From sequence record NC_073320.1: a stretch of 42,462 bases of DNA; one strand, written 5' to 3'. The notes under the pieces were generated by a model. It searched no databases, was not told the origin of the DNA, and saw nothing but the letters and a program-made list of their open reading frames with translations. Positions within the stretch are counted from its first letter, which is position 1. Every line of letters begins with the position of its first letter. Positions 1 through 42,462 of this stretch are shown piece by piece. A program made the position numbers and the translations under genes. This DNA comes from Escherichia phage 26.

Positions 1-2011
1 CATATGCGAGTAAATCACGGCACAGCGCCTGAACAATGTTTTCGCAGGCTTTGCCGCCGTGGGTGTACAGGGTAGTCCATTGGCGGGTTAACTGGTTTTC
101 ACCCTGATACTTGATTCGCACATTCGTGTTTACTCGTCCGTCTTCGTCTGTTTCCTTTGTCACACTAACGCCGATTCCCGGATACGAGAGGATACGGCCT
201 GACGGCAACTCCACACACAACCACCAACCTGGAACCTTCCTGCCGGATAAATCGGTTTCTACTGTTCTCCAGATTCGGATAGCGCGCTCGCCATTCTTGC
301 GCAGATGCGCCCCCGCCCAAAATTCACGACCCGGATTTCTTACAGCGGCTAAAATACCGTCTTTGAGGTCTCGCCAGAACGCTACTGTTTCCGGGTGTGA
401 CTCACGCCACATACGCTTGATTGCGTCACATGTGCGCCACACTTTCTTGTCCAGAATATACGACGGTCGGTCATCCTTTTCACCTGGATGTGGCGGTCGC
501 TTGGCTTCCTGGATACGCGCCCATTCATACCCTCTCGCAGTGGCCGACCAGATGTGGTCCGGGAATGTACCGTCCATTGTTTTAGCCATCTCAATAAGGT
601 CAAGACCTAGGTTTTTAGCAAACGTAACGAACGCTCCGACACCCCCCTCATAGCCGAGGCCAAGCTCGCATGCTTTGCCTATCTGTCTGATTTCCTTGAA
701 GTTTTTCTTAATATCGTCGGGGTCCATGCCGAACATCTTGCCCGCGGTTACGCAGTAAATATCCAGTCCGGCGCGGAACGTATCGAGCGCGGTTTCTTCG
801 CCCGCCAGCCACGCAAGCCCTCGTCCTTCAACGTTAGAGTAATCAGCAACAACAAACTTATGCCCAGCTTCCGGTATGATGCAACTACGAACCGTCGATG
901 CCGTTAGTTTGGCTACATCGAAACGGCGATGCGCGCGGCCCTTAAGTAACGCAGAAATCCCTTTATCCAGTTCATCATCGTGATAGTACCCGCGCGCCAG
1001 GTTCTGTGGTTGGAAGCCTTTACCCGCCCACCGCAAAGTGCGTTTTGCCCCACCGTACTGTAAACACCCCCGGCGGCGGTCGTCAGAAGAGCGGCCTAAC
1101 AGCAGCGGGTTATATTTCGTTGACGCTGTTGATGCGGCCCCGAGCCGCATTTCGATAATCGTGCGAGCGTCGTCCGGTAAATCATCATCAGCCAACAGGT
1201 CGTTAAGCGTCGATTTCTGTGCGTTGTGGATGCGGTGTGCGGGTGCGAGTTCACGCAGAATCGGAAGGAAGTCTTTACCAGTAAGCGAGCCGCCGTATTT
1301 GCGCTGTGCTTCTTCATGTAACTGTGCCTTGTGTTTCTCCACGGCTTCAATCGCGGATTCCGCCAGTGCAACGTCAACCTTAAACCCACGGTCGTTGATT
1401 AACTGGTCCAGTTCCAGTACACGGTCCTCGAACTCGGAGTTACCCCACCGCGGCAGCTTATGGAAGACTTCACGCATCGCTGTGATGTCGCTAACGGCGT
1501 ACTTGATGAACATCTCCCACTCGTCCGGGTGCGTTTCGGCGGTGTAGCGGCGTATTTTGTAGTTCTTAGGTGTCGGTTTAGAGAAACGCTGAATCAGCGC
1601 CTTACCGCGTTTGTCCTTTGCGTTGTCCGCGGACACGCCCAGCACTTCGCACAACGCATCAAGTGAACCCGGCAGCGCGTGACGAAACGCCCAAATCATC
1701 GTATCAATGGTGTTGCTTACCGGAATATCAAAGCCCCAGCAGTGCTTCATGATGAGCCTATCGAAAAGTCCACCGTTGTGCCACACCATCTTGATGCGGC
1801 TGTTCGGCTTCACCAGGCGGCGTAACGCGCGGTGTAAATCTCCCGGCATGTCGCTGCCGTCGGTGCAATCCCACACCTGCACAGGCTCGTCATCAAAAGC
1901 ATAGGTACAGATTAGCACTTCGGTGGTTGGGTGTTCAGCGTAAGCGTAGGAGCCGACTTTCTTTAAATCGGCTTCGGAGAATGTTTCAAAGTCTAAGAAC
2001 AGGTAACTCAT
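1..2011 (-). CDS. DNA polymerase, family A with 3'-5' exonuclease domain (first 670 codons; gene wraps the window junction and ends at 42272)
   Basis: ATG at 2011-2009; N-terminus MSYLFLDFETFSEADL has a DnaQ-like Exo I (D-x-E) motif; frame stays open to position 2 and joins in-frame with 42462 (..LLAYA/MINVEGGG..). Confidence 0.85.
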   Translation of the reverse strand, partial: MSYLFLDFETFSEADLKKVGSYAYAEHPTTEVLICTYAFDDEPVQVWDCTDGSDMPGDLHRALRRLVKPNSRIKMVWHNGGLFDRLIMKHCWGFDIPVSNTIDTMIWAFRHALPGSLDALCEVLGVSADNAKDKRGKALIQRFSKPTPKNYKIRRYTAETHPDEWEMFIKYAVSDITAMREVFHKLPRWGNSEFEDRVLELDQLINDRGFKVDVALAESAIEAVEKHKAQLHEEAQRKYGGSLTGKDFLPILRELAPAHRIHNAQKSTLNDLLADDDLPDDARTIIEMRLGAASTASTKYNPLLLGRSSDDRRRGCLQYGGAKRTLRWAGKGFQPQNLARGYYHDDELDKGISALLKGRAHRRFDVAKLTASTVRSCIIPEAGHKFVVADYSNVEGRGLAWLAGEETALDTFRAGLDIYCVTAGKMFGMDPDDIKKNFKEIRQIGKACELGLGYEGGVGAFVTFAKNLGLDLIEMAKTMDGTFPDHIWSATARGYEWARIQEAKRPPHPGEKDDRPSYILDKKVWRTCDAIKRMWRESHPETVAFWRDLKDGILAAVRNPGREFWAGAHLRKNGERAIRIWRTVETDLSGRKVPGWWLCVELPSGRILSYPGIGVSVTKETDEDGRVNTNVRIKYQGENQLTRQWTTLYTHGGKACENIVQALCRDLLAY

Positions 2012-21904: not shown

Positions 21905-21986
21905 TTGCCTTGCATGTTGGAATAATTTATTCTTGACATGTAAATCCGGGTGGCCCGGGTTCCAACGTCCAGGGGACATACTGACT

Positions 21987-22688
21987 ATGAATCGTTTTTT
22001 ACGTTATCCGTTCCAGGAAGAAGCTGGGGCAGAAGATAAAGCTGGCGGCGGTGACGCGCCGAAAATGTTCACTGTTGAAGAAGTTCAGGCGCTGATTGAG
22101 AAAGAAGTTGCCGGGCTTAAGGCCAATCAGGAAGCGTTGCTGGCGGAGAAGAAAGAAGCCGCACGTAAAGCAAAAGAGGCTGAAGAAGAACGGCAGCGCG
22201 CACACCAGGAGGCGTTAAAAGCCGCTGGTAAGATGGATGAGTTCGAAAAGACGATTCGTAGCCAGTATGACCCGGTGTTAGCCGAGAAAGATGGGCGCAT
22301 CTCCAAAATGGCGGAGCGCATCCTCGGCAGCGAACGTAAAGCGGTGTTAGGCTCTTTCGCGGGTGACTTTATTACCCCGGAAGCAGTAGACATTCTTGCA
22401 CCGTTCGTTAAGACTGAGTTCGAAGGCGATGATGTGGTTACTAAGTTTGTCGGCGCAGATGGCAACGTAATCACGACTGACCCGGAACAGTTCCGCAAAT
22501 ACCTGCGCGAACACAAAGCGTTTTCGCATTTGATTAAAGCAAATGCAGCTTCCGGCGGCGGGGCTTCCGGTAGCAAAGGCGGCGGGGCCGCACCAGCGTT
22601 TAAAGACATGAGTGAAGCGGAGCGTTTAGCTCTGTATAAATCGAACCCTGCCGAATTTGAACGGCAACTTAAAGCCCTGAGGAAATAA
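21987..22688 (+). CDS. scaffolding protein (by position and composition)
   Basis: 233 aa, Ala/Glu/Lys-rich helical, directly upstream of major capsid gene. Confidence 0.55.
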   Translation: MNRFLRYPFQEEAGAEDKAGGGDAPKMFTVEEVQALIEKEVAGLKANQEALLAEKKEAARKAKEAEEERQRAHQEALKAAGKMDEFEKTIRSQYDPVLAEKDGRISKMAERILGSERKAVLGSFAGDFITPEAVDILAPFVKTEFEGDDVVTKFVGADGNVITTDPEQFRKYLREHKAFSHLIKANAASGGGASGSKGGGAAPAFKDMSEAERLALYKSNPAEFERQLKALRK

Positions 22689-22690
22689 TA

Positions 22691-23740
22691 ATGGCAATTA
22701 CCACTATCGGCGATATCGTAACTGGCAACATCCCGGTCCTGGCGTCTTATATGACTGAGGACCCGGTAGAAAAAACCGCGTTCTTCCAGTCTGGTATTCT
22801 GACCCCGACCCCATACGCTGCCGAGATTGCCCGCGGCCCGTCCAACATCGCTAATATTCCGTTCTGGAAAGCGATTGATACCTCTATCGAGCCGAACTAC
22901 TCGAACGACGTATACCATGACATCGCAACCCCGCGTAACGTGCAGACCGGTGAGATGATGGCGCGCGTTGCATACCTGAACGAAGGTTTTGGCCAGGCCG
23001 ACCTGACTGTCGAACTGACCAGCCAGAACCCGCTGCAATCCGTAGCGTCCCGTCTGGATAACTTCTGGCAGCGTCAGGCGCAACGCCGTCTTATTGCTAC
23101 CGCACTCGGTCTGTACAACGACAACGTAGCCGCTACTGATGCTTACCACGAGCAGAACGACATGGTTATCGACGTGTCCGCTACTCTGGGTTTCGACGCA
23201 GGCGCGTTCATCGACGCTACCCAGACTATGGGTGATGCACTGATTGGCAACGGTGGTGAAGTGCTGGGCGCTATCGCGATGCATAGCTTCGTTTATGCGC
23301 AGGCCCGTAAGCAGCAGCTTATTGACTTCATCAAAGACGCTGACAACGACACCCTGTTCGCCACCTACCAGGGCTACCGCGTGGTTGTTGACGACAGCAT
23401 GACCGTAGTAGGTAGTGGCGGCAGCCGTAAGTTCATCTCCATCATCTTCGGCAACGGCGCTATCGGTTACGGCGAAGGTTCTCCGTCCAACCCGCTGGAG
23501 TACGAGCGCGAAGCGTCCCGCGGCAACGGCGGTGGCGTAGAAACCCTGTGGACCCGTAAGACCTGGTTGCTGCACCCGCTGGGCTACAGCTTCACCAGCG
23601 CAGTAATCACCGGCAACGGCACCGAGACCGTCGCACGTTCTGCTTCCTGGCAGGACCTGGCGAACGCTTCCAACTGGAACCGTGTTGTCGAACGTAAGCA
23701 CGTACCGATCGCCTTCCTGGTAACTGGTGTAGGGGCTTAA
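22691..23740 (+). CDS. major capsid protein
   Basis: 349 aa after scaffold gene, followed by a terminator. Confidence 0.7.
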   Translation: MAITTIGDIVTGNIPVLASYMTEDPVEKTAFFQSGILTPTPYAAEIARGPSNIANIPFWKAIDTSIEPNYSNDVYHDIATPRNVQTGEMMARVAYLNEGFGQADLTVELTSQNPLQSVASRLDNFWQRQAQRRLIATALGLYNDNVAATDAYHEQNDMVIDVSATLGFDAGAFIDATQTMGDALIGNGGEVLGAIAMHSFVYAQARKQQLIDFIKDADNDTLFATYQGYRVVVDDSMTVVGSGGSRKFISIIFGNGAIGYGEGSPSNPLEYEREASRGNGGGVETLWTRKTWLLHPLGYSFTSAVITGNGTETVARSASWQDLANASNWNRVVERKHVPIAFLVTGVGA

Positions 23741-23755
23741 GGTTAAGCTATAATC

Positions 23756-23784
23756 GAGAGGGACTTCTGTCCCTCTTTTCATTT
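23756..23784 (+). terminator. rho-independent terminator after capsid gene
   Basis: AGAGGGA-CTTCTG-TCCCTCT then TTTCATTT. Confidence 0.5.
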
Positions 23785-38817: not shown

Positions 38818-38847
38818 AACTAAGGCCCCAAACGGGGCCTTTTCTCT
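38818..38847. terminator. terminator AAGGCCCC-AAAC-GGGGCCTT at end of late arm (likely bidirectional)
   Basis: 8-bp GC stem then TTCTCT; between convergent tailspike (+) and HNH remnant (-). Confidence 0.65.
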
Positions 38848-38979
38848 ACTCTTCGGATAACTTCTCCAGTACAAACGCCAGTTGTGCATTAGCAGCGTCT
38901 CTCTGTTGCCGTAGGCGTATAACCTCCTCTTCGAGTTCCTTGATACGTTTTTGCAATGCGGGAATCGGGGCTATGATGT

Positions 38980-39465
38980 TCACGCGGTTTCTCCGTGTTT
39001 TTCATGAAATCCGTAAGCAGCCTCCGCAGCTTTACGTGCGGCAACAGCTTCGTCAAAATTATCAAACTGTCCTAGATGTATTTTTCTTCTGTCGACTTTT
39101 ATCTATGCCACCCATTTGTTTCTTCTCTTTTCCCGCCATACGCCAAGAGCGCCACTAGTATTGTTTACCCCTATTGATGCGTTGCGGCTATTTCCGGTGT
39201 TGGTAACTTTCCGTAGGTTGCATATTCGGTTATCAGTTCGAATATGATTGATGTGGTCTATCTGTTCCTGTGGCGTAAGTGGGTTATCTGGGTTGCAGAT
39301 ATTCCACGCTAACCGGTGCGCCAGTTATAATTTTCCGTTTACTCGGATACGAATGTACCCATCCCGTGGGCAAAAACATCCTGCTTTCTTTCCGATAAAA
39401 CCCATACGTTTTGTTTCTACCCATGTAAAAATACCGGTTTCTGGGTCGTAAGATATCTTGCTCAT
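38980..39465 (-). pseudogene. HNH-AP2 homing endonuclease gene disrupted by two in-frame stop codons
   Basis: frame from ATG 39465 reads MSKISYDPETGIFTW..GYIRIRVNGKL-TAA-LAHRLAWN..IDHINHIRTDNRICNLR..NKWVA-TAG-IKVDRRKIHLGQFDNFDEAVAARKAAEAAYGF..-TGA; no frameshift, stops at 39325-39327 and 39103-39105. Confidence 0.7.
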
Positions 39466-40886
39466 TTCTTACTCCTACGTTTCATATACTCAAGGAGGAT
39501 ATCCTGCACCTGTTTTTTCTCGTCTGTACGAGCGGCGACAACTTCATCAAGAGTATCTCGGGCTATTATTTTATAAATGAATACAGACCGTTTGTATCCG
39601 GATTGCATCTGCCTTACCGGGCCTATGCGCTCGATAACCTGCAAATAGTGTTCCAGGTTCCACCCCTGACTCATAAAGGCCATGTGATGCCCGCCGTGTT
39701 GTAGCGACAGCCCGTGACCTGCGGACGCTGGGTGTATCAGGAGCATAGGTATTTCACCACGGTTCCACGCTTCCATCTGCTTATTACCCTTAGCCCCTTT
39801 GGCGAACGCCTGTGCTTGCGGGAATCGCTTAAGGATACGCTCCAGTTCGTGCTTAAACTGATATGCCACCAGTAGCGGCGCGCCATGTAACTCCTCAACA
39901 ATGGACTCCAGCGCATCCAGTTTCGTGTCGTGCACTTTCTCCCAGTCTTTTGTTGCTTCGCCGTCTGGCCCTGACACATATACGGCACCAGATGCAATCT
40001 GCAAACACTTCGACGTCTTCGCTGCGGCGTTAGCGGCTTCAACTTCCCCGCTCTCCAGTTCCGCAAATAACTTCTCCTCCATATCTATGTACGCCTGACG
40101 CGCCTTCTTCGGAAGGTCTATTTCAACCGGCACAATAATCGGCGATTCACATCCGAACCACTCGGCGGCGTCAATCGTGAGACTAATGTCCTTCATCTTC
40201 TGGTGAATTTCATTATCCGCCCCCGGGCGGGCATGATACTCCCGTGCCATAGCCGATTTGCCTTTTTGCACCGAGTTAAACCAGCGGTCGGTGAACGCTG
40301 TGTACGAAGAACCGAGGCGCTCGCCTGCGTCGATAAACCAGTTCTGACCCCACAAGTCTTTTAGGCCGTTTGGCGATGGCGTACCAGTCAGGTTGATAAA
40401 ACGCTTAACCTTACCGAACGCAACCTTACTGAGCGCCTTCGCCCTCTTGCTGCCACCTGAACGACTACGGAACGATTTCAGCTTAGTGCTTTCATCCGCA
40501 ACAATAACCGTAAAAGGCCAGTCGTCTTTGCCGTAGTAGTCAATCAGCCACTCGATAACTTCGTAGTTCGTGCACACCACGTTGGCATCGGACTCCAGCG
40601 CCGCGATGCGGCGCTTCTCTGAACCGGTCGCATCTACAACACTCAGGCATGGGAATTGCCATTTCTCTTGTTCTGCGGGCCACGTACCAGACGCAACACG
40701 TAAAGGAGCCAGAATTAACACTCGGTCATCGTCATTAAGTTGCCCATTACGGAACAGTCTGTTGAGAACCCACAACGTTGACCCTGACTTACCACTGCCC
40801 ATCGAAGCCCATATGTTACATCGAGGGTGCCGCAACATGAACGAAGTCATGAGCTTCTGATATTCGCGCCTTTGAAACTTAGACAT
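39462..40886 (-). CDS. SNF2/DEAD-like superfamily 2 helicase
   Basis: Walker A MGSGKS, motif II IVADEST, motif VI QVIERIGPVRQ. Confidence 0.8.
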   Translation of the reverse strand: MSKFQRREYQKLMTSFMLRHPRCNIWASMGSGKSGSTLWVLNRLFRNGQLNDDDRVLILAPLRVASGTWPAEQEKWQFPCLSVVDATGSEKRRIAALESDANVVCTNYEVIEWLIDYYGKDDWPFTVIVADESTKLKSFRSRSGGSKRAKALSKVAFGKVKRFINLTGTPSPNGLKDLWGQNWFIDAGERLGSSYTAFTDRWFNSVQKGKSAMAREYHARPGADNEIHQKMKDISLTIDAAEWFGCESPIIVPVEIDLPKKARQAYIDMEEKLFAELESGEVEAANAAAKTSKCLQIASGAVYVSGPDGEATKDWEKVHDTKLDALESIVEELHGAPLLVAYQFKHELERILKRFPQAQAFAKGAKGNKQMEAWNRGEIPMLLIHPASAGHGLSLQHGGHHMAFMSQGWNLEHYLQVIERIGPVRQMQSGYKRSVFIYKIIARDTLDEVVAARTDEKKQVQDILLEYMKRRSKK

Positions 40887-41562
40887 GATTAGCCTCGTAA
40901 ACTGCTTTTGCGAAACCCCGCGGAGTAAGGCTGCGTATTGTTTTTGTCCCCACCGATTTACCGCCTAATTTATTGTGTTGGTCAGAGTAACCGCCAACCA
41001 CGGCGACACATGATTTAACAGGCATCACAAAACCGTTACCCGCCCAAATACATGTCTTCTTAGGGTACGCGTCCCGCGGTTTTATGTATTCGGGGAACAT
41101 TGGGTGCGTGTCGTCTTCGGGTAAATAGCCGCCGTATTCGTATGGATTGAACGCGTAGTCAGGCTTACGCCATAAAGACGAAAGAACGCTAACAGGGTTC
41201 TCAATCATATAAGGTACGTTGTACTTTTTAGCCAGACGCGCCGCCACTTTGCATGTAATTACGGCCTCTACCTGAAACGTGGGGTTCTTCTTCCGCTTCG
41301 TTTCAAAATGCGCCGCGCCGCTAACGGCTAAATCTGTGCACGGAGGGAACGCAAAAATAATATCCGGCGCAACCCCGAAGTCGAATTTATTGTCAATCCA
41401 AGCGTTTATATAGTGGATGTTTTCGTGTTCAACTTTTGCACCCAATCGTGCGTAGTCTCCGTGGTCGGCGCCATCGTAGTTGAAACAATAGCAAGTATGG
41501 CCTGCTTCCGCCCACGGTTGGGCCATAAGGCCCGAACCGTCAAACAATGACCAGACAATCAT
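40879..41562 (-). CDS. C5-cytosine DNA methyltransferase-like protein (short, no obvious target-recognition domain)
   Basis: motif I-like LFDGSG, motif IV-like FPPCT, motif VI-like ENP; 227 aa. Confidence 0.5.
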   Translation of the reverse strand: MIVWSLFDGSGLMAQPWAEAGHTCYCFNYDGADHGDYARLGAKVEHENIHYINAWIDNKFDFGVAPDIIFAFPPCTDLAVSGAAHFETKRKKNPTFQVEAVITCKVAARLAKKYNVPYMIENPVSVLSSLWRKPDYAFNPYEYGGYLPEDDTHPMFPEYIKPRDAYPKKTCIWAGNGFVMPVKSCVAVVGGYSDQHNKLGGKSVGTKTIRSLTPRGFAKAVYEANHV

Positions 41563-42154: not shown

Positions 42155-42282
42155 TCCAGCACCCACAGATAAATTGCGATGAACATACCTAATACGGCGA
42201 CAATCATGCCGTATTGGCCTTCGTGACAGTAGACCCCAGCGGCGAATCCCGCCAGTACCGCGATAATCAGTTTACTTAGCAT
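42151..42282 (-). CDS. possible 43-aa membrane peptide
   Basis: MLSKLIIAVLAGFAAGVYC..MIVAVLGMFIAIYLWVLE, two hydrophobic segments; start overlaps polymerase end. Confidence 0.3.
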   Translation of the reverse strand: MLSKLIIAVLAGFAAGVYCHEGQYGMIVAVLGMFIAIYLWVLE

Positions 42283-42462
42283 AACGCTTCATCTCCGCAC
42301 CTTCCGCTACAAGAGGGAAACCCTCAGCCCATTCCGGCAGCGAGCACATTAATTTTTCCAGTTCGCCCACCGTGTACTCTGTGGTATCCGGAGTTTCACA
42401 TACCAATTCATCGTGTACCGAAAGCACGATGGGATACCCGCCACCCTCAACATTAATCATCG
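42272..42462 (-). CDS. DNA polymerase, family A, C-terminal 63 codons (continuation of 1..2011 across the window junction)
   Basis: contains motif C LSVHDELV; stop TAA 42274-42272; frame contiguous with position 1. Confidence 0.85.
   Translation of the reverse strand, partial: MINVEGGGYPIVLSVHDELVCETPDTTEYTVGELEKLMCSLPEWAEGFPLVAEGAEMKRYAK

What the first reader, a model, noticed from the sequence alone, without database searches (positions are those of the whole stretch)
38980..39465. HNH-AP2 homing endonuclease ORF with two in-frame nonsense codons and no frameshift
Downstream of the SNF2 helicase (ATGA-coupled), one reading frame encodes a recognisable HNH plus AP2-domain endonuclease, but with TAA at codon 47 (where HNH proteins usually have Tyr before AHRLAW) and TAG at codon 121 (inside the KWxAxI AP2 motif). 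Both are single-base away from sense codons and the frame is otherwise intact over 161 codons. The likely explanations are a recently inactivated selfish endonuclease, sequencing or assembly error, or less likely stop-codon readthrough. TAG and TAA are used as genuine stops elsewhere in this genome, which argues against recoding.
Basis: seen in the sequence. Interest (0 to 1): 0.5.

Follow-up and report, generated by a model that had tools for sequence, protein, structure and literature searches.

The report
Recently killed phage homing endonuclease gene
A selfish, dispensable DNA-cutting gene (HNH-AP2 homing endonuclease) in a Jersey/K1G-like phage genome has been knocked out by two single-base nonsense mutations that none of its 15 known relatives carry; this is the ordinary decay such genes undergo, not a recoding system.

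Summary
Window 38980-39465 (minus strand) is a 161-codon HNH_3 + AP2 reading frame with TAA at codon 47, TAG at codon 121 and no frameshift. It overlaps the SNF2 helicase stop (ATGA) and the start of a 45-aa ORF (GTGA).

Fifteen other copies of the gene, from GenBank Guernseyvirinae phages and from metagenome assemblies up to 99.5% identical to the window over about 6 kb around the gene, are all intact. They carry GAA (Glu) at codon 47 and GAG/GAA (Glu) at codon 121, and pN/pS among them is 0.09.

Both stops, plus N156K, are private G:C>T:A changes of the window lineage. That is 3 private changes in 486 nt where about 0.4 are expected. Private changes elsewhere are 10 synonymous to 5 nonsynonymous (4.0 synonymous expected at random, P~0.001), so they look like real, selected substitutions rather than base-call noise.

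No other conserved gene carries an in-frame stop. The window has no tRNA, so no suppressor tRNA. TAA, TGA and TAG all end ordinary genes. No in-frame restart codon could rescue the nuclease domain.

The slot is polymorphic in relatives: intact gene, a 58-aa deletion remnant, other cargo, or empty.

Verdict: a recently pseudogenised homing endonuclease. It is ordinary and of low interest. Read-level confirmation is still missing.

The parts
38980..39465 (-). HNH_3 + AP2 free-standing homing endonuclease gene, 161 codons, now a pseudogene
   Evidence: Translation. Pfam and PHROG hits. Intact orthologues in the same slot.
39325..39327 (-). Codon 47 TAA, derived from GAA (Glu) by a G>T change at window 39327. 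It lies just upstream of the LAHRLAW box, so the 46-aa product lacks the whole nuclease domain.
39103..39105 (-). Codon 121 TAG, derived from GAG (Glu) by a G>T change at window 39105. It lies inside the KWVAEI strand of the AP2 domain.
38998..38998 (-). Third window-private change in the gene: AAC>AAA, N156K (C>A on the gene strand).
39462..40886 (-). SNF2-family DNA helicase (474 aa), intact. Its TGA overlaps the HNH ATG (ATGA).
   Evidence: The identical protein is present in Logan SRR21357621.
38846..38983 (-). 45-aa coiled-coil ORF (PHROG 5915). Its GTG start overlaps the HNH TGA, with GGAG 8 nt upstream. In HNH-less relatives it is coupled directly to the helicase.
38822..38841 (.). GC-rich hairpin terminator shared by the convergent tailspike gene (+) and the helicase-HNH-45aa operon (-).

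Best explanation
This is a free-standing HNH-AP2 homing endonuclease gene that was recently inactivated in this phage lineage by real point mutations. In relatives the intact gene sits between the SNF2 helicase and a 45-aa ORF and is translationally coupled to both. By inference from its family, it cuts the endonuclease-free allele of co-infecting related phages and is copied in by repair. In the window, two G>T transversions turned Glu47 (GAA) and Glu121 (GAG) into TAA and TAG. Translation now stops after 46 residues, before every catalytic box (HRLAW, DH, DNR, NLR, xN). No in-frame start codon follows that could express the nuclease domain. The gene is therefore a fossil drifting neutrally. 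This is the degeneration stage of the invasion, fixation, decay and loss cycle of homing endonuclease genes. Shown here: the stops, their derived and private status, the intactness and purifying selection of orthologues, and the polymorphism of the slot. Inferred: homing activity of the intact gene, and that the mutations are in the phage rather than in the assembly.
For: - All 15 other copies (9 distinct sequences) are intact, with GAA at codon 47 and GAG/GAA at codon 121. pN/pS among them is 0.09.
- Assemblies 99.2-99.5% identical to the window over about 6 kb (Logan SRR21357621; ENA ERZ28573975 and ERZ28573735) have sense codons. The Logan contig has an identical helicase protein.
- Of 18 window-private alleles in 20,667 assessable nt, 3 lie in this 486-nt gene. 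About 0.36-0.42 are expected (P~0.006-0.009). All 3 are nonsynonymous.
- The 15 private changes outside the gene are 10 synonymous to 5 nonsynonymous, against 4.0 synonymous expected at random (P~0.0013). They therefore carry the mark of purifying selection and are not random errors.
- A tblastn of all relatives' ORFs against the window finds in-frame stops only in this gene. One further hit, at 41548, is a plus-strand ORF in a stretch of L022 where all called genes are on the minus strand, so I treated it as spurious.
- The slot is polymorphic: intact HNH, a 61-aa gene, a frameshifted 61-aa gene, a 171-aa gene, or empty. At least 15 GenBank Jerseyviruses keep only a 58-aa in-frame deletion remnant of this same gene.
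- Degeneration of phage HNN/HNH-AP2 genes after spread is already described (PMC2248197).
Against: - No reads and no second copy of the window's own lineage could be found, so an assembly or consensus artefact is not formally excluded.
- Two nonsense among three changes is somewhat unlikely under pure neutrality. P is about 0.03 using the 11% nonsense fraction of G:C>T:A changes in this gene. However, the locus was picked because it has two stops.
- Three changes against about 1 expected from the synonymous rate is only weakly elevated (P~0.09, my arithmetic).
Confidence: 0.78

Rival explanations
1. Sequencing, assembly or consensus artefact. The phage has the intact gene, and the three G:C>T:A differences are errors (for example oxidative-damage artefacts at low coverage, or minority variants promoted into the consensus of a mixed population).
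For: Near-identical assemblies have sense codons at both sites. All three changes belong to the G:C>T:A class typical of 8-oxoG library damage (own knowledge), and half of all window-private changes are of that class. The window's source could not be located, so its coverage is unknown.
Against: Private changes outside the gene are strongly biased to synonymous sites (10 of 15 against 4.0 expected, P~0.0013; 4 of the 6 G:C>T:A changes are synonymous). Random errors would not show this. Random errors would not place 3 of at most 8 candidate errors in 2.4% of the assessable sequence (binomial P about 7e-4, my arithmetic). No other gene carries a stop.
Confidence: 0.17
2. The gene is still expressed by stop-codon readthrough or suppression, either as a way to keep a toxic nuclease at very low level or through growth on a suppressor host.
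For: The frame is perfectly preserved over 161 codons and both stops are one step from sense codons.
Against: There is no tRNA gene in the genome. All three stop codons terminate ordinary genes. The stops are not conserved in any relative, including ones 99.2-99.5% identical over the surrounding ~6 kb. Two different stops (ochre and amber) would both need suppression, and UAA is the most efficient terminator in enterobacteria (own knowledge). The frame is preserved simply because too little time has passed: 0.09% private divergence.
Confidence: 0.02
3. Inactivation was positively selected. An active or half-truncated nuclease was costly in this lineage (for example it cut its own genome or the host's), so knock-outs swept. 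One stop came first and the second either followed neutrally or removed a harmful AP2-less nuclease.
For: Two nonsense hits among three changes is more than neutrality predicts (P~0.03). Three changes where about 1 is expected from the synonymous rate.
Against: The statistics are weak and subject to ascertainment, because the locus was chosen for its stops. Orthologues in very close genomes are kept intact under purifying selection. Nothing indicates a changed target site.
Confidence: 0.03

Closest known systems
HNH homing endonuclease of Guernseyvirinae phages in the same slot (e.g. Salmonella phage Jersey gp35 AGP24923.1; Escherichia virus fEg-Eco19 gp54c UGV20512.1)
   Same: Same 486-nt gene at 90-94% nucleotide identity, in the same position between the SNF2 helicase and a small ORF next to the tailspike gene, with the same ATGA coupling.
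   Different: Those copies are intact. The window copy has E47* and E121* (and N156K) and cannot make the nuclease.
HNN/HNH-AP2 free-standing endonucleases of phages Xp10/OP1/Xop411, T5 and T1 (Lee et al. 2007, PMC2248197)
   Same: Same architecture: a His-Me finger nuclease with HRLAW, DNR and NLR boxes, followed by a C-terminal AP2 DNA-binding domain. Free-standing and sporadically distributed, with documented degeneration after spread. The Jersey annotation cites Xp10 NP_859005.1 as similar.
   Different: Related only at family level. The degenerate Xoo-phage copies described there are truncations or domain losses, whereas here decay is at its earliest visible stage: point nonsense mutations with the full length preserved.
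58-aa 'HNH endonuclease' remnant of SE479-type Salmonella Jerseyviruses (e.g. XQQ53182.1)
   Same: A derivative of the very same gene in the very same slot, also non-functional as a nuclease.
   Different: It was inactivated by an in-frame internal deletion (codons 17-119 lost across a short TGGGT repeat) rather than by nonsense mutations.

Membership tests
HNH-AP2 (HNH_3 + AP2) phage homing endonuclease | HNH_3 / His-Me finger nuclease domain recognisable in the sequence | tested here: met
   With the stops read as Glu: Pfam PF13392, 39.1 bits against a 24.8 cutoff, residues 48-94. PHROG 99, E=4e-63. The boxes AHRLAW, IDHINH, DNR and NLR are visible.
HNH-AP2 (HNH_3 + AP2) phage homing endonuclease | C-terminal AP2 DNA-binding domain | tested here: inconclusive
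   Pfam PF00847, 24.8 bits, E=2.7e-5, below the 33.3 gathering score. The PHROG 99 match runs through residue 159, and the motif GVW...KWVAEI...LGQF...EAA is present.
HNH-AP2 (HNH_3 + AP2) phage homing endonuclease | Uninterrupted ORF able to produce the enzyme | tested here: not met
   TAA at codon 47 and TAG at codon 121. The only in-frame ATG/GTG/TTG after codon 47 is GTG at codon 119, just before the second stop. It is therefore filed as a pseudogene of the family, not an active member.
HNH-AP2 (HNH_3 + AP2) phage homing endonuclease | Sporadic presence or absence at a fixed site among otherwise syntenic genomes | tested here: met
   The 486-nt gene matches 52 phage records, against 229 matching the slot with its flanks. 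In relatives the slot is empty, holds other cargo, or holds the HNH gene.
HNH-AP2 (HNH_3 + AP2) phage homing endonuclease | Site-specific cleavage of the endonuclease-free allele, with gene conversion (homing) | not testable with these tools
   Needs cleavage or co-infection assays. No experimental data for this orthologue group were found.
Stop-codon recoding / suppressor-dependent phage genes | The in-frame stop type is avoided as a terminator genome-wide, and/or a suppressor tRNA is encoded | tested here: not met
   TAA 36, TGA 29 and TAG 11 terminate the 76 ORFs. ARAGORN finds 0 tRNA genes. In-frame stops occur only in this gene.
Stop-codon recoding / suppressor-dependent phage genes | In-frame stops conserved among relatives | tested here: not met
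   None of 15 other copies has a stop at either position.

The most novel reading that the evidence does not exclude
The double knock-out was driven by selection against an active endonuclease in this lineage, or the nuclease is kept at trace level by double readthrough, rather than arising by neutral decay. That would make this locus a natural example of a phage purging or throttling its own homing endonuclease.
Probability: 0.04. Interest if true: 0.35.

Novelty: already known. Interest (0 to 1): 0.08.

Why it matters
Mostly it matters for annotation. The locus should be marked as a pseudogene (or flagged for read-level checking), not as two or three small ORFs or as evidence of an alternative genetic code. 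Together with its relatives it gives a tidy natural series of one homing endonuclease gene caught in every state at a single insertion slot in Guernseyvirinae: intact, freshly nonsense-mutated, internally deleted, replaced by other cargo, and absent. This illustrates the known life cycle but adds no new biology.

Tried and rejected
- **Finding the window's own source or a sibling with the same stops.** Exact look-ups of the 46-aa N-terminal fragment, the tailspike, the 227-aa ORF at 40879-41562 and a 137-aa tail protein found nothing. Pattern scans across both stop sites found nothing in IMG/VR, and a scan across the codon-47 site found nothing in JGI metagenomes or GTDB genomes. No independent copy of this lineage was available.
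- **Suppressor tRNA.** None; the window has no tRNA at all.
- **Genome-wide recoding or a generally error-ridden assembly.** Rejected, because only this gene has in-frame stops and private changes elsewhere are synonymous-biased.
- **Restart translation of the nuclease domain.** Rejected, because there is no in-frame start codon between the stops except codon 119.
- **The 61-aa ORF or 178-bp spacer in HNH-less relatives as an HNH relic.** Rejected. There is no similarity to the HNH gene; it is an unrelated small gene, frameshifted in some genomes.
- **A solved structure of a close homologue.** None found by sequence.
- **Other HNH paralogues in the window as a source of gene-conversion or assembly chimeras.** None present.
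- **Large protein-database searches and structure prediction.** Not used, because the orthologue set already answered the question.

Full report
**What is there**

The window is a complete, circularly permuted genome of a Kagunavirus/Jerseyvirus-like siphophage (Guernseyvirinae).
- A 99.6%-identical metagenome contig aligns straight across the window's ends.
- The best GenBank relative is Raoultella phage RP180, at about 89% identity.

On the minus strand, 38980-39465 reads as 161 codons plus TGA. TAA is at codon 47 (39327-39325), TAG is at codon 121 (39105-39103), and there is no frameshift.
- The ATG overlaps the stop of the 474-aa SNF2 helicase (ATGA).
- The TGA overlaps the GTG of a 45-aa coiled-coil ORF (PHROG 5915).
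- A hairpin terminator follows, shared with the convergent tailspike gene.

With the stops read as Glu, the product matches three profiles:
- Pfam HNH_3, above threshold.
- Pfam AP2, below threshold (E=2.7e-5).
- PHROG 99 'HNH endonuclease', E=4e-63 over nearly its full length.

**Relatives**

GenBank phages fEg-Eco19, Jersey, BUCT823, ORH_001 and f2SE carry a 486-nt gene in the same slot, annotated as HNH or homing endonuclease in every record that has annotation. All have GAA at codon 47 and GAG/GAA at codon 121.

An exact-protein look-up with the helicase found Logan contig SRR21357621_37529. Its helicase is identical and its HNH gene is an intact 161-aa ORF. Look-ups with the 45-aa ORF and a tail protein brought in more metagenome contigs that are 99.2-99.5% identical over about 6 kb.

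In total there are 15 other copies (9 distinct sequences).
- None has an internal stop.
- pN/pS among them is 0.09, so the gene is functional and constrained elsewhere.
- The ancestral residues are Glu at both positions.

**Are the stops real mutations or errors?**

I projected all close relatives (97% identity or more) onto the window. I called a window allele private when at least 3 relatives agreed on another base.
- 20,667 nt were assessable, giving 18 private alleles.
- Three fall in the HNH gene: E47*, E121* and N156K. All are G:C>T:A changes, against 0.36-0.42 expected (P~0.006-0.009).
- R21M, which also differs from the Logan contig, is shared with four other assemblies and is an ordinary polymorphism.
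- Of the 15 private alleles outside the gene, 10 are synonymous. Random placement, given their mutation classes, predicts 4.0 (P~0.0013).

The window's private differences therefore bear the imprint of purifying selection. They are evolved substitutions in a replicating lineage, not base-call noise.

Random errors would also not pile up in the one dispensable gene. A tblastn of every relative's ORFs against the window finds in-frame stops only here. One further hit, at 41548, comes from a plus-strand ORF in a stretch of L022 where all called genes are on the minus strand, so I treated it as spurious.

From the synonymous rate (about 0.002 per site, my arithmetic), a neutral 486-nt stretch should have collected about 1 change. 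Three is compatible with this (P~0.09).

Two nonsense among three G:C>T:A changes has P~0.03, using the 11% nonsense fraction of that class in this gene. That figure is inflated by ascertainment, because the locus was selected for having two stops.

I could not find reads or a second copy of this exact lineage. An artefact therefore remains possible, at roughly one chance in six.

**Recoding or readthrough**

This reading is not supported.
- The genome has no tRNA gene.
- TAA (36), TGA (29) and TAG (11) all terminate ordinary ORFs.
- The stops are absent from every relative.
- Between the two stops the only in-frame potential start is GTG at codon 119, and after the second stop there is none. 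The nuclease domain cannot be expressed by re-initiation.
- The 46-aa product ends just before LAHRLAW and lacks all catalytic boxes.

**Context: a homing-endonuclease slot in every stage**

The helicase / 45-aa-ORF junction is polymorphic in relatives:

| State of the slot | Where seen |
|---|---|
| Intact HNH gene | 15 copies |
| Unrelated 61-aa gene | L009, L010, L011, L014 |
| Frameshifted copy of that 61-aa gene | L024, L025, L026 |
| 171-aa gene | L007 |
| Empty, helicase coupled directly to the 45-aa ORF | L012 |

At least 15 GenBank Salmonella Jerseyviruses (SE479 type) retain only a 58-aa in-frame deletion remnant of this very gene. Codons 1-16 are fused to the last 42 across a TGGGT repeat.

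Relatives also carry paralogous HNH(-AP2) genes at other sites that the window lacks. The window has no other HNH gene of this family.

This is the classic pattern of free-standing homing endonuclease genes. Degeneration of phage HNN/HNH-AP2 genes after spread has been described for Xanthomonas phages and T5 (PMC2248197). That paper cites the Goddard and Burt cycle of invasion, fixation, decay and loss.

**Mechanism**

Some steps are shown and some are inferred.
- Inferred from the family: the intact enzyme binds DNA through AP2 and cuts the endonuclease-free allele of a co-infecting relative near the helicase / 45-aa-ORF junction. Its gene is then copied in by recombinational repair.
- Shown: in the window, translation ends at codon 47, so no nuclease can be made.
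- The downstream 45-aa ORF has its own GGAG 8 nt upstream of its GTG. By inference it is still translated despite losing coupling.

**Verdict**

This is a recently pseudogenised HNH-AP2 homing endonuclease. It is a known kind of event in a known gene family.
- Real pseudogene: confidence about 0.78.
- Assembly or sequencing artefact: about 0.17.
- Selected knock-out: about 0.03.
- Readthrough or suppression: about 0.02.

Interest is low (0.08).

Noticed in passing
L033 901-1077 (Salmonella phage SE479, PV057340.1) and the other records listed as H100-H117: At least 15 GenBank Jerseyviruses carry a 58-aa in-frame deletion remnant of this same HNH gene in the same slot. Codons 1-16 are fused to the C-terminal 42 across a TGGGT repeat. 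Several records annotate it as 'HNH endonuclease' although the nuclease domain is gone.
   Followed up: partly
L009/L010/L011/L014 2819-3004; L024 15062-15238; L007 2489-3004; L012 about 3001: The helicase / 45-aa-ORF junction is an insertion hot spot with alternative cargo: a 61-aa gene, a frameshifted copy of it, a 171-aa gene, or nothing. The 61-aa cassette is bracketed by the repeated junction GGTAAGAAATGA.
   Followed up: partly
whole window (private alleles at 2095, 25000, 32001, 36987, 38411, 38532, 38998, 39105, 39327): Half (9 of 18) of the window-private substitutions are G:C>T:A transversions. The nearest Logan relative also shows an excess (27 of 70 private changes). The cause is not determined; it could be an oxidative-damage-like mutation spectrum or a library artefact.
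   Followed up: partly
window 22127-23782 (-): A 551-codon stop-free ORF runs antisense across the head scaffolding gene (21933-22688) and the major head protein gene (22691-23740). It has no PHROG match, while the sense genes match strongly. It is probably a shadow ORF, but it is unusually long.
   Followed up: partly
window 1-2011 and 42272-42462 (-): The DNA polymerase A gene is split by the window's linearisation point. Relatives align continuously across the ends, so the window is a complete permuted genome.
   Followed up: yes
L006 1-388; L020 3687-4187; L022 18049-18564; window about 4044: Very close relatives carry additional HNH or HNH-AP2 genes at other sites: upstream of the DUF2800 / PD-(D/E)XK gene, in the tail module, and next to the DNA polymerase. 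The window lacks all of them, so this genome encodes no intact HNH endonuclease of this family.
   Followed up: partly
window 39193-39195 (codon 91 of the HNH gene): The whole metagenomic clade, including its intact copies, has Gly instead of the Glu of the conserved 'EN' box (TNTGNSRN against TNTENSRN in the GenBank phages). The effect on activity is unknown.
   Followed up: no
L030 382-873 (Salmonella phage PBSE191, OM291373.1): An intact 163-aa HNH-AP2 ORF is left unannotated in the GenBank record, between the 'putative endonuclease' and the DNA helicase.
   Followed up: yes
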